Shown here in pieces: positions 10,601-13,600 of a stretch of 64,000 nucleotides of DNA (positions are counted from its first letter, which is position 1; the number at the start of each line of letters is the position of its first letter). This stretch comes from Escherichia coli (GTDB lineage: Bacteria; Pseudomonadota; Gammaproteobacteria; Enterobacterales; Enterobacteriaceae): NCBI RefSeq assembly GCF_030013595.1, contig NZ_CP122768.1; one strand, 5' to 3'. Position numbers: made by a program.

Positions 10601-13600
10601 AGCCAGGCAGGGCAACGATTGCGCGTTAAAGGCAAAGGTCTGGTGAGCAAAAAACAGACCGGCGATCTGTATGCGGTACTGAAAATCGTGATGCCGCCGA
10701 AACCGGATGAAAACACTGCCGCGCTATGGCAGCAACTGGCAGATGCCCAGTCGTCTTTTGATCCACGTAAAGATTGGGGGAAAGCATAATGGCTAATGTT
10801 ACGGTGACTTTTACTATTACCGAATTTTGCCTGCATACCGGCATCTCTGAAGAGGAGCTGAATGAAATTGTCGGTTTGGGGGTGGTTGAACCGCGTGAGA
10901 TCCAGGAAACAACCTGGGTATTTGACGACCATGCCGCCATTGTGGTGCAACGCGCGGTACGCCTGCGTCATGAACTCGCTCTGGACTGGCCGGGGATCGC
11001 GGTGGCGCTGACGTTAATGGATGATATTGCGCACCTGAAGCAGGAAAACCGCCTGCTGCGCCAGCGGCTTTCCCGGTTTGTAGCTCATCCGTGATGTGTG
11101 TTTGCCAGATGCGATGACGCATCTTAGCCGGTCTACAAAGATTGCTGTTCCTGTGGGCCGGATAAGGCGTTCATGCCGCATCCGGCAACTGCGCCATAAT
11201 GCCTGATGCGACGCTAAACGCGTCTTATCAGGCCAACAAACGACGTTATCTGTTTTGGTGGTCGCACTCCACTAACACCAGCAATAACTGGCTTAGTGCC
11301 GCGTAAAAACCAAAGCTATCATACTGACGACAACGCGCAGCAAACTCTGGTAACCATTCCCACAGTGCCGTCAGCGTTTTTTGCCGCAAACTGTCGATTC
11401 TTCGCGCAGGAACGGTCCCCTCTCCCAGCGAAAAATGCAGATGGCTGAGCAATTCGAGATAGATCGCCAGATGATCTGCCGGTTCGTTGAAATTGCCGCT
11501 GGTTTCCATCCCTGCCTCAACTAACAAGCGTTTAATCTCTTGCTCGTCCTGTTTGTAGGCCGATGCATACGGCAGCGCAGCTTGTTTGTCGGTCATCAGA
11601 AACAGGCCGCAAAAGTCAGCGGCCAGTTCCAGACGGGCATCGTCACGTACGGTCAGGGCTGCAATACGGTTTTCCAGCTCATTCACCGCCGCAGTGAGCG
11701 GCGGTTCACTTTTCAGCAACGAAAACCATTCAGCCATCTGCGCACTGGCGATTTGCGTCAGTTGTTCATCGTCCAGTTCACGGGAGAACAACTGCGCCAG
11801 CCAGGCGTAAACACAGGCAATCTGTTGTGCTGTCAGCGTGGTCATGATTTCACCTGCGACGCGGGAACATATTCGCACTGCGCCACCATCTCCACGGGGC
11901 CGTTAAACGCCGTTACCTGCTCCACTGTTCCGTTGTACTTCTCAATTTCCACCAGCGTAGTGTGCGCACTGGTCGCCTGCGCCAGCTGAGAAGTACCGAT
12001 GTCGATGGTCAACACGTTGGGGTTACCGTATTTGCACAGCGCACCAGGCTCGCCGCCTTTATCTGGATCGTACCATGCCCCTTCATGAATTCGCGCCACG
12101 CCGGGTGCATAACGGTCAGAAACCACTGCCCCTGCCAACACCTGACCGCGAGCGTTAAAGACGCGTACCACATCACCGTTACGAATACCGCGTGCGCTGG
12201 CATCCTGCGGGTTAATGAACACTGGCTCTTTGCCCGCTACCGTATATTGCTGACGCAGCGTTTCCGACTCACATAACTGCGAGTGAAGTCGGAAATCAGG
12301 ATGCACAGATTGCAGATGCAACGGATACTTCTGCGAGCCAGGCCCACCGTGGGAGCGTTCGATTTTCTCAAACCACATCGGATGCCCCTGACAATCGTCG
12401 TAGTTCATATCGGCGATAGTTTTCGAGTAGATCTCAATCAGGCCACTCGGCGTGCCCAGCGGTTCGAGATCCGGATCTTCGCGGAATGCCTGGTGACGAA
12501 CAAACATCTGCGGATGGTCAAACTCGACATACTCTTTGTTATTCCAGAAGTCATCAAACGCTGGCAGATGAACGCCGCGTCCTTTGCCCTGTTGTACACC
12601 TTCCTGCCAGATGCGTTTCAGCCAGCCCATTTCGTCCAGCCCTTCGGTAAAGGCTTCTTCGCGGTTAAAGCGACGGCACAGCTCGCGGAAAATATCAAAG
12701 TCGTTGCGCGCCTCGAACTGCGGCGGCACGACCTGTTTCATGGCGATAATGCCACGGTTGGAGTGGTTGCCGTACTGGTCGAGATCGTTACGCTCAAACT
12801 GCGTGGTCGCAGGCAGCACGATATCGGCAAAGCGGCAGGTTGAGGTCCACTGGTTATCTATGGCGATAACCGTTTCCAGCTTGCGCCAGCCTTCAATAAT
12901 GCGGTTGATCTGCTGATGGCGATGGAACGGGTTAGTTCCGGCAAAAATACACATTTTCAGCGGCGGCAGTTTTACTGATTTACCGTTCCAGTTGATCACT
13001 TTCCCCGGTTCGAGGATCGCATCGATAAAACGGGCAATCGGAATGGTACTGCTGTAGCCTTTGTAGTCACTGTTGTCGTAAACAGGCGGAATCGACGTAG
13101 AGCCGGAGAAACCACTCAGAATAACGCCTTTACGTCCCGGCGTGCCTGCGCCGTTATAGTGCCAGCCAAAACCAAAGCCACCACCTGGCAGGCCAATTTG
13201 CCCCAGCATCGCCGCCAGAACCACAATCATCCACGCCCACTGTTCACCGTGCTGCATACGCTGTACGCACCAGCCAGCAATAATCTGCGTTCTGTTCGCC
13301 GCCATCTGCCGCGCCAGCCCACGAATGGTTTCGGCATTAATGCCAGTCAGTTTTTCAGCCCATGCGGCATCTTTCGGCTGACCGTCTTTCTCACCCAGCA
13401 GATACGGCAGGAACTGCTCAAAACCTACACAGTAGTTAGCGAGGAAGTTTTTGTCGTACAGGTTTTCACTGTACAGCGTATGCGCCAGAGCCAGTTGCAG
13501 CGGCACGTCAGTTTGCGGGTTAACCGCAATGTGCTTCACATGCTCGCGCCCCAGATACTCATGGGTGGATGTGACAACCGGATCGATGCTGATGACCTTA

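What the first reader, a model, noticed from the sequence alone, without database searches (positions are those of the whole stretch)
11103..11233. REP/BIME palindromic unit cluster downstream of cbpM
Two to three imperfect palindromes of the REP type lie between convergent cbpM and torD. They likely act as mRNA stabilisers or terminator substitutes and are potential gyrase or IHF binding sites. This is a routine feature; it is recorded so the hairpins are not mistaken for a small RNA gene.
Basis: partly seen in the sequence, partly recalled or inferred. Interest (0 to 1): 0.1.

Follow-up and report, generated by a model that had tools for sequence, protein, structure and literature searches.

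The report
REP hairpin cluster between cbpM and torD
The 151-base gap between the converging E. coli genes cbpM and torD holds three copies of the well-known REP repeat arranged as a BIME-2-type cluster; this is an ordinary, already described kind of element whose copy number varies between strains.

Summary
The cbpM-torD spacer (11095-11245) holds three REP palindromes in alternating orientation. REP1 (11103-11136, +) is degenerate and closest to Z2. REP2 (11153-11187, inverted) is Y type, 32/35 to the reference. REP3 (11200-11237, +) is Z2 type, 34/38. A strict REP pattern hits twice against 0 expected.

Y and Z2 with 12- and 16-nt linkers make this a BIME-2-type cluster, not BIME-1. There is also no promoter-like site and no hairpin-plus-T-run terminator.

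Across 5,420 complete E. coli genomes the spacer exists as 92, 151/153, 254 and 355/356 nt alleles. These carry 1 plus a hybrid hairpin, 3, 5 and 7 REPs, with a 101-nt period. One strain carries IS621 inserted in the first REP.

Both stop codons lie 8 nt from a REP, within the published 15-nt range for translational down-regulation.

This is an already known kind of feature, of low interest.

The parts
10789..11094 (+). cbpM coding sequence (last gene of cbpAM). Its TGA stop is at 11092-11094, 8 nt before REP1.
   Evidence: ORF list. RefSeq annotation of the identical stretch in strain GF60 and of K-12.
11103..11136 (+). REP1: a degenerate REP, closest to Z2 (28 of 37 columns, with a 3-nt deletion). 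It keeps the CTAC foot. As RNA it forms a 7-bp inner stem, -12.3 kcal/mol.
   Evidence: It occupies the position of a canonical Z2 in strains Ecol_542, WP3-W18-CRE-03, CU532-9 and N96.
11137..11152 (.). 16-nt tail-to-tail linker, AAAGATTGCTGTTCCT, between REP1 and REP2.
   Evidence: Read directly from the sequence. The homologous linker AAAGAGCACTGTTCCC recurs in the 5- and 7-REP alleles.
11153..11187 (-). REP2: a Y-type REP in inverted orientation (32/35 to the reference Y). Its foot is GTGG instead of GTAG. RNA hairpin energy is -19.2 (plus strand) and -19.5 (minus strand) kcal/mol.
11188..11199 (.). 12-nt head-to-head linker, ACTGCGCCATAA, between REP2 and REP3. It is too short for the L motif that carries the IHF site.
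   Evidence: Aligned to the 12-nt linker of the naRNA4 consensus. No IHF consensus.
11200..11237 (+). REP3: a Z2-type REP (34 of 38 columns to the reference Z2). Its foot is CAAC instead of CTAC. RNA hairpin energy is -21.3 (plus strand) and -21.8 (minus strand) kcal/mol, z = -6.9 and -5.7.
11156..11234 (+). The Y-linker-Z2 unit that matches Rfam naRNA4 (RF02564) end to end: 79.2 bits on the cbpM-sense strand and 50.7 bits on the other strand. The gathering score is 59.5.
   Evidence: One such hit per Y-Z2 unit in other alleles.
11246..11845 (-). torD coding sequence (last gene of torCAD). Its TAA stop is at 11248-11246, 8 nt from the end of REP3.

Best explanation
The spacer is a BIME-2-type cluster of three E. 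coli REP elements: a degenerate Z2-like unit pointing right, a Y unit pointing left, and a Z2 unit pointing right. It sits at the shared 3' end of the converging cbpAM and torCAD operons. Identity and anatomy are shown here; the effects below are inferred.

Origin (inferred). It is one allele of an array with fixed outer boundaries whose interior grows and shrinks in 101-nt Y+Z2 steps, or by microhomology deletion. This is the behaviour published for BIME-2, possibly helped by the REP-associated transposase.

Likely effects (inferred from published REP biology, not measured at this locus):
1. Transcripts from either operon run into the array and fold into stable hairpins, -12 to -22 kcal/mol each. 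The hairpins block 3'-to-5' exonucleases and so set and stabilise the mRNA 3' ends. They may also attenuate read-through into the opposing operon, since no canonical intrinsic terminator is present.
2. The first hairpin lies 8-11 nt after each stop codon. Ribosomes terminating on cbpM and on torD may therefore be hindered, lowering the output of these two distal genes.
3. As DNA, the Y-Z2 pair is the kind of site gyrase prefers. It could relieve the positive supercoils that build up between converging operons.

My estimates: REP/BIME-2 identity about 0.97; RNA 3'-hairpin role about 0.55; effect on translation about 0.25; gyrase site about 0.3; IHF site below 0.05.
For: Identity:
- Y and Z2 assignments against published reference REPs (strings taken from the Methods of PMC11208160): 32/35 and 34/38.
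- Scores of 29 and 29 against a shuffle maximum of 15.
- The strict pattern hits twice against 0 expected.
- Inverted alternating orientation with short linkers.
- Rfam naRNA4, a model of one Y-Z2 unit, scores 79.2 bits.

Array behaviour:
- Alleles of 92, 151/153, 254 and 355/356 nt carry 1 plus a hybrid hairpin, 3, 5 and 7 REPs. Y units start at 61, 162 and 263, a 101-nt period.
- The distances to both stop codons stay constant across alleles.
- The 59-nt difference between the 151- and 92-nt alleles equals the spacing of the direct repeat ATGACGCATC/ATGCCGCATC.
- PMC3333891 and PMC1187871 describe this same copy-number variability for BIME-2.

Effects:
- Hairpin energies.
- No hairpin-plus-T-run terminator and no promoter-like site in the spacer.
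- The stop-to-REP distance of 8 nt on both sides is read from the sequence.
- REPs fewer than 16 nt from a stop codon down-regulate translation (Liang et al. 2015, as summarised in PMC12306157).
- REPs act as terminators, mRNA stabilisers and gyrase sites (PMC3333891).
- Gyrase cleavage sites are over-represented in BIME-2 and favour Y units (PMC6379681).
Against: - No transcript, 3'-end, ribosome or gyrase data for this locus were available.
- The text-held supplements of the gyrase Topo-seq paper do not mention cbpM, cbpA or torD.
- About a third of E. coli genomes carry the 92-nt allele, which lacks the Y unit altogether (rough estimate from evenly spaced rows). Any role that needs the Y-Z2 pair is therefore dispensable.
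- REP2 and REP3 have lost the GTAG/CTAC foot (GTGG and CAAC), and REP1 is degenerate. This looks like decay rather than selection on sequence.
- REP1, the hairpin nearest the cbpM stop, is the weakest (-12.3 kcal/mol).
Confidence: 0.88

Rival explanations
1. Selfish or neutral repeat with no role at this locus. The array is a leftover of REP/BIME spread and internal recombination. It is tolerated because it lies between two stop codons, and any effect on the neighbouring genes is incidental.
For: - Large copy-number polymorphism, from 1 plus a hybrid hairpin up to 7 REPs, including loss of the Y unit in roughly a third of genomes.
- Mutated GTAG/CTAC feet in REP2 and REP3, and a degenerate REP1.
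- IS621 sits in the array in strain N96 without disrupting either gene.
Against: - Every allele examined keeps a strong hairpin 6-8 nt after the cbpM stop and a Z2 8 nt from the torD stop.
- No canonical terminator is available as an alternative.
- This rival concerns selection, not mechanism. The hairpins would still form in the transcripts.
Confidence: 0.35
2. A functional naRNA4-like small RNA. The Y-linker-Z2 unit would be processed out of the cbpAM 3' untranslated region into an RNA of about 80 nt that binds HU and helps condense the nucleoid, as reported for REP325.
For: - A full-length Rfam RF02564 match above the gathering score on the cbpM-sense strand.
- PMC4550694 reports that many REPs are transcribed (almost 80% in its abstract; 152 of 355 in minimal medium in its results) and that an RNA with the Y and Z2 hairpins cooperates with HU.
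Against: - No promoter-like site.
- The Rfam model scores any Y-Z2 unit, one hit per unit in every allele, so the match shows REP identity, not function.
- The 92-nt allele has no hit at all.
- There are no expression or HU-binding data for this locus.
Confidence: 0.07
3. An IHF-binding BIME-1 (RIB/RIP) element.
For: Only the general fact that some BIMEs bind IHF (PMC3333891).
Against: - No Z1 unit.
- The linkers are 12 and 16 nt rather than the long L motif.
- No IHF consensus, even with 1 mismatch, within 11095-11245.
Confidence: 0.03
4. A canonical bidirectional intrinsic (Rho-independent) terminator.
For: Strong GC-rich hairpins on both strands between converging operons.
Against: The scan found no hairpin followed by a T-run in the spacer on either strand. 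The hairpins are followed by AAAG, ACTG and AACAAACG rather than U-tracts.
Confidence: 0.05

Closest known systems
E. coli BIME-2 (alternating Y and Z2 REPs/palindromic units; Gilson, Bachellier, Hofnung; summarised in PMC3333891 and PMC1187871)
   Same: - Y and Z2 units in inverted alternating orientation with short linkers.
[quoted passage not shown]
- The tandem copy number differs between strains in steps of one Y+Z2 unit (101 nt here).
   Different: In this window the first unit is degenerate (3-nt deletion, 28 of 37 columns to Z2). Two of the three units have lost the GTAG/CTAC foot. Strictly, the window allele is a decayed BIME-2, while the 5- and 7-REP alleles in other strains are canonical.
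REP325 / naRNA4 (Rfam RF02564; PMC4550694)
   Same: The same Y-12-nt-linker-Z2 unit of about 77-79 nt, matched end to end at 79.2 bits on the strand that an upstream gene would transcribe.
   Different: REP325 holds six units between yjdM and yjdN, with experimental evidence for RNA products and HU binding. Here there is one unit, no expression data, and a linker matching the family consensus at only 6 of 12 positions.
BIME-1 / RIB-RIP elements (Y + L linker with IHF site + Z1)
   Same: A pair of inverted REPs at the 3' end of a gene.
   Different: No Z1, no long L linker and no IHF consensus.
REP sites targeted by IS621 (target ATCAGGCCTAC; PMC11208160)
   Same: In strain N96 IS621 sits in the first Z2 of this same array, at ATCAGGCCT|AC.
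   Different: None of the three REPs in the window matches the 11-mer. REP1 has 3 mismatches. REP2 has 2 and REP3 has 1, each including the T of the CT pair at the insertion point.

Membership tests
REP / palindromic unit of E. coli | Imperfect palindrome of 30-40 nt able to form a stem-loop with an internal mismatch | tested here: met
   The units are 34, 35 and 38 nt long. Inverted repeats I2 and I5. Hairpins of -12.3 to -21.8 kcal/mol with internal mismatches in REP2 and REP3.
REP / palindromic unit of E. coli | Sequence match to the Y, Z1 or Z2 consensus | tested here: met
   REP2 matches Y at 32/35 and REP3 matches Z2 at 34/38. Both score 29 against a shuffle maximum of 15. REP1 reaches only 28 of 37 columns (score 16), which is marginal on its own. 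The reference strings come from the Methods of PMC11208160.
REP / palindromic unit of E. coli | Conserved GTAG (CTAC on the other strand) tetranucleotide at the foot of the palindrome | tested here: inconclusive
   REP1 keeps CTAC. REP2 has GTGG and REP3 has CAAC. Most REPs in the 5- and 7-REP alleles keep GTAG/CTAC. PMC3333891 reports that the REP-associated transposase TnpA-REP needs GTAG to bind and cleave.
REP / palindromic unit of E. coli | [quoted passage not shown] | tested here: met
   The cluster lies between two stop codons. Two further REP-like units occur in the window, at 30851-30885 and 32290-32327. The 5-REP allele used as a query finds a median of 4 places per genome.
BIME-2 | Y and Z2 units alternating in inverted orientation | tested here: met
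   Z2-like right, Y left, Z2 right in the window. Strict Z2/Y alternation in the 5- and 7-REP alleles.
BIME-2 | Short S linker and s/l/r flanking motifs | tested here: inconclusive
   The linkers are short (12 and 16 nt).
BIME-2 | Tandem copy number varies between strains at a given locus | tested here: met
   Spacers of 92, 151/153, 254 and 355/356 nt with a 101-nt period.
BIME-2 | Bound and cleaved by DNA gyrase | not testable with these tools
   Published for a subset of BIME-2 (PMC6379681). The text-held supplements of that paper do not mention cbpM, cbpA or torD.
BIME-1 (RIB/RIP) | One Y and one Z1 separated by a long L linker carrying an IHF site | tested here: not met
   No unit fits Z1 best. 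The linkers are 12 and 16 nt. No IHF consensus in 11095-11245.
Rfam naRNA4 (RF02564) | Covariance-model score at or above the curated gathering score | tested here: met
   79.2 bits against 59.5, model positions 1-77 of 77, plus strand.
Rfam naRNA4 (RF02564) | Expressed as an RNA that binds HU and condenses DNA | not testable with these tools
   Shown only for REP325 RNAs (PMC4550694). No data exist for this locus.
Intrinsic terminator | GC-rich hairpin followed directly by a T-run | tested here: not met
   No terminator-like site in 11095-11245 on either strand.

The most novel reading that the evidence does not exclude
The sense-oriented naRNA4-like Y-Z2 unit in the 3' untranslated region of cbpAM is released as a stable RNA in stationary phase, when cbpAM is expressed (from established knowledge). 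It would then work with nucleoid proteins, HU or CbpA itself (a curved-DNA-binding nucleoid protein), in nucleoid compaction. The strain-to-strain copy number (0 to 3 units) would set its dosage. The evidence does not exclude this: the Rfam match is full-length on the correct strand. Nothing positively supports it beyond sequence identity with REP325 units.
Probability: 0.04. Interest if true: 0.45.

Novelty: already known. Interest (0 to 1): 0.07.

Why it matters
This matters mainly for annotation hygiene. The locus is a textbook REP/BIME-2 cluster, not a new gene.

Three practical points follow:
1. Rfam-based pipelines will call the Y-Z2 pair "naRNA4". That label should be read as "REP unit", not as evidence of a small RNA gene.
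2. The spacer is a length polymorphism of 92 to 356 nt, with occasional IS621 insertion. It can confuse alignments and could serve as a typing marker.
3. Both cbpM and torD end within 15 nt of a REP. That makes them candidates for the published REP-dependent lowering of translation, a modest hypothesis that can be tested.

Tried and rejected
- The window-scan part used wrong end-gap settings and gave meaningless low scores. It was replaced by a proper fitting alignment.
- I looked for REP repeat_region features in the RefSeq copy of K-12. None is listed at this locus or between yaaX and yaaA, where I recalled one, so the copy gave no independent REP annotation for this locus.
- Liang et al. 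2015 and 2016 (PMC4427526, PMC4829296) are not held. The 15-nt rule is therefore cited second-hand from PMC12306157.
- Supplements of PMC4550694 and PMC3333891 are not held as text. Supplements of PMC12306157 and PMC6379681 do not mention cbpM or torD.
- A literature search for cbpM or torD together with REP found nothing specific to this locus.
- I assumed the window was collinear with strain GF60 in order to name distant genes. It is not, so I used a direct similarity search instead.
- Rejected readings: IHF-binding BIME-1; canonical intrinsic terminator and independent small RNA gene with its own promoter.
- I did not scan other species (genome contigs or metagenome contigs). The cost was not justified for a routine feature.

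Full report
**Where we are.** The window is Escherichia coli. Positions 11040-11300 are 100% identical to strain GF60, and the stretch is found in 5,420 of 5,426 complete genomes. The local genes are yccE-like (8353-9609, -), cbpA (9869-10789, +), cbpM (10789-11094, +), torD (11246-11845, -) and torA (11842-14388, -).

**The observation.** The spacer contains three imperfect palindromes.
- REP1: 11103-11136 (+), TGCCAGATGCGATGACGCATCTTAGCCGGTCTAC.
- REP2: 11153-11187, inverted; the minus strand reads TGCCGGATGCGGCATGAACGCCTTATCCGGCCCAC.
- REP3: 11200-11237 (+), TGCCTGATGCGACGCTAAACGCGTCTTATCAGGCCAAC.
- Linkers: 16 nt tail-to-tail (11137-11152) and 12 nt head-to-head (11188-11199).

This is far more than chance would give.
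- A strict REP pattern hits exactly REP2 and REP3 in 64 kb, against 0.00 expected.
- Fitting alignments to reference REPs score 29, 29 and 16. The maximum in 20 shuffles of the window was 15.
- Each unit folds into a hairpin of -12.3 to -21.8 kcal/mol on either strand.
- The whole spacer folds with z = -5.7 and -4.7 on the two strands.

I used the three reference REP sequences printed in the Methods of PMC11208160.
- REP2 is Y (32/35).
- REP3 is Z2 (34 of 38 columns).
- REP1 is degenerate and closest to Z2 (28 of 37 columns, with a 3-nt deletion).
- No unit fits Z1 best.
- REP1 would be marginal alone. In strains Ecol_542, WP3-W18-CRE-03, CU532-9 and N96 the same position holds a canonical Z2, so it is a decayed copy.
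- The GTAG/CTAC foot survives only in REP1. REP2 has GTGG and REP3 has CAAC. PMC3333891 reports that the REP-associated transposase needs this tetranucleotide.

**BIME type.** The published definitions are as follows (PMC3333891, PMC1187871).
- BIME-1 is one Y and one Z1 with a long L linker that often carries an IHF site.
- BIME-2 is alternating Y and Z2 with short linkers, in variable tandem copy number.
- All other combinations are "atypical".

Here Y and Z2 alternate with 12- and 16-nt linkers. No IHF consensus, even with one mismatch, lies in the spacer. I could not assign the linker motif classes (S, s, l, r) because their consensus sequences were not in the held texts.

**Population picture.** The spacer is polymorphic.
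- 92 nt (TC_EC10, L3Cip3, P15-25): a hybrid hairpin plus one Z2.
- 151 nt (window, K-12) and 153 nt (O157): the alignment scan scores three REPs in the window and K-12. In O157 the first unit falls below the scan cutoff.
- 254 nt (Ecol_542): five REPs.
- 355/356 nt (CU532-9, WP3-W18-CRE-03): seven REPs.
- In the longer alleles Y units start at 61, 162 and 263, so the period is 101 nt.
- In every allele examined the array starts 6-8 nt after the cbpM stop and ends 8 nt before the torD stop. The outer boundaries are fixed and the variation is internal.
- The 59-nt difference between the 151- and 92-nt alleles equals the spacing of the direct repeat ATGACGCATC/ATGCCGCATC (D2). The 92-nt allele carries the REP1 version of this repeat on the left and REP2 sequence on the right. 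It is best read as a microhomology deletion.
- Rough allele shares, from evenly spaced rows: about 43% three-REP, about 33% 92-nt, about 13% five-REP and about 8% seven-REP. 1,131 genomes are at least 95% identical to the canonical long form. These are sampling estimates, not counts.
- In strain N96, IS621 is inserted in the first Z2 at ATCAGGCCT|AC. This is the published natural IS621 target (PMC11208160).

**The small RNA question.**
- No sigma-70-like promoter site and no hairpin-plus-T-run terminator occur in the spacer.
- However, Rfam's naRNA4 model (RF02564) matches 11156-11234 end to end at 79.2 bits on the cbpM-sense strand. The gathering score is 59.5, and the other strand scores 50.7.
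- naRNA4 is itself a Y-linker-Z2 unit of REP325, reported to bind HU and condense DNA (PMC4550694).
- The model scores one hit per Y-Z2 unit: 1, 2 and 3 hits in the three-, five- and seven-REP alleles, and none in the 92-nt allele.
- The match therefore proves REP identity, not function. Even so, an Rfam-based pipeline will label this as a small RNA.

**How it most likely works.**

Shown here: the anatomy, the hairpin stabilities, the lack of a canonical terminator, and the 8-nt distance from each stop codon to the nearest REP (9-11 nt to the stems).

Inferred from published REP biology (PMC3333891, PMC6379681, PMC12306157):
1. cbpAM and torCAD transcripts end in or run through the hairpins. 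The hairpins protect the 3' ends from exonucleases and may attenuate read-through.
2. REPs fewer than 16 nt from a stop codon lower translation of the upstream gene, so CbpM and TorD are candidates for this effect.
3. The Y-Z2 pair is the preferred kind of gyrase site, sensibly placed between converging operons.

Against a strong functional claim:
- About a third of genomes lack the Y unit.
- The feet of REP2 and REP3 are mutated.
- No locus-specific data were found.

A neutral-repeat reading remains a serious rival regarding selection, though not mechanism.

**Verdict.** This is an already known kind of element at an ordinary place, and the interest is low.

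Noticed in passing
L009 104-1535 (E. coli N96, the same cbpM-torD spacer): IS621 (IS110 family, the bridge-RNA recombinase element) is inserted in the first Z2 REP of this array. The junctions read ...ATCAGGCCT|TGTATT... and ...ACAGTATCT|ACAAAG..., which matches the published natural target ATCAGGCCTAC.
   Followed up: yes
L004 456-547, L006 582-673, L012 451-542 (92-nt alleles): A 59-nt deletion between the direct repeats ATGACGCATC and ATGCCGCATC fuses the 5' arm of REP1 to the 3' end of REP2. The result is a near-perfect new palindrome, TGCCGGATGTGATGACGCATCCGGCA, 8 nt after the cbpM stop. Roughly a third of complete genomes appear to carry this allele.
   Followed up: partly
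window 30851-30885 (+): A single Y-type REP (score 27; ACCGGATGCGGCGTGAACGCCTTTTCCGGTCTAC) lies in the appB/cbdX-appA region. A separate hairpin with a T-run follows at about 30905-30950.
   Followed up: partly
window 32290-32327 (+): A degenerate Z2-like palindrome (TGCCTGATACGACGCTAATGCGCCGCATCAGAC, score 19) lies in the appA-etk region.
   Followed up: no
window 41737-41935 (-), 21916-22338 (-), 41158-41245 (+): Other Rfam hits above gathering score: IS009 (223 bits), a cspA-type thermoregulator leader (157 bits), and a tRNA that ARAGORN calls tRNA-Ser (anticodon tga).
   Followed up: no
window 10817-11122 (-) and 11014-11181 (-): Mechanical ORFs of 101 and 55 aa run antisense to cbpM, and the second starts inside REP2. 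Nothing suggests they are genes. They are noted only so they are not annotated by mistake.
   Followed up: no
NZ_CP172185.1 versus the window: The window is 100% identical to strain GF60 across the spacer but not collinear with it 20-30 kb further on: the tRNA-Ser offset differs by about 8 kb. The window therefore probably comes from another strain, or GF60 has an indel nearby.
   Followed up: no
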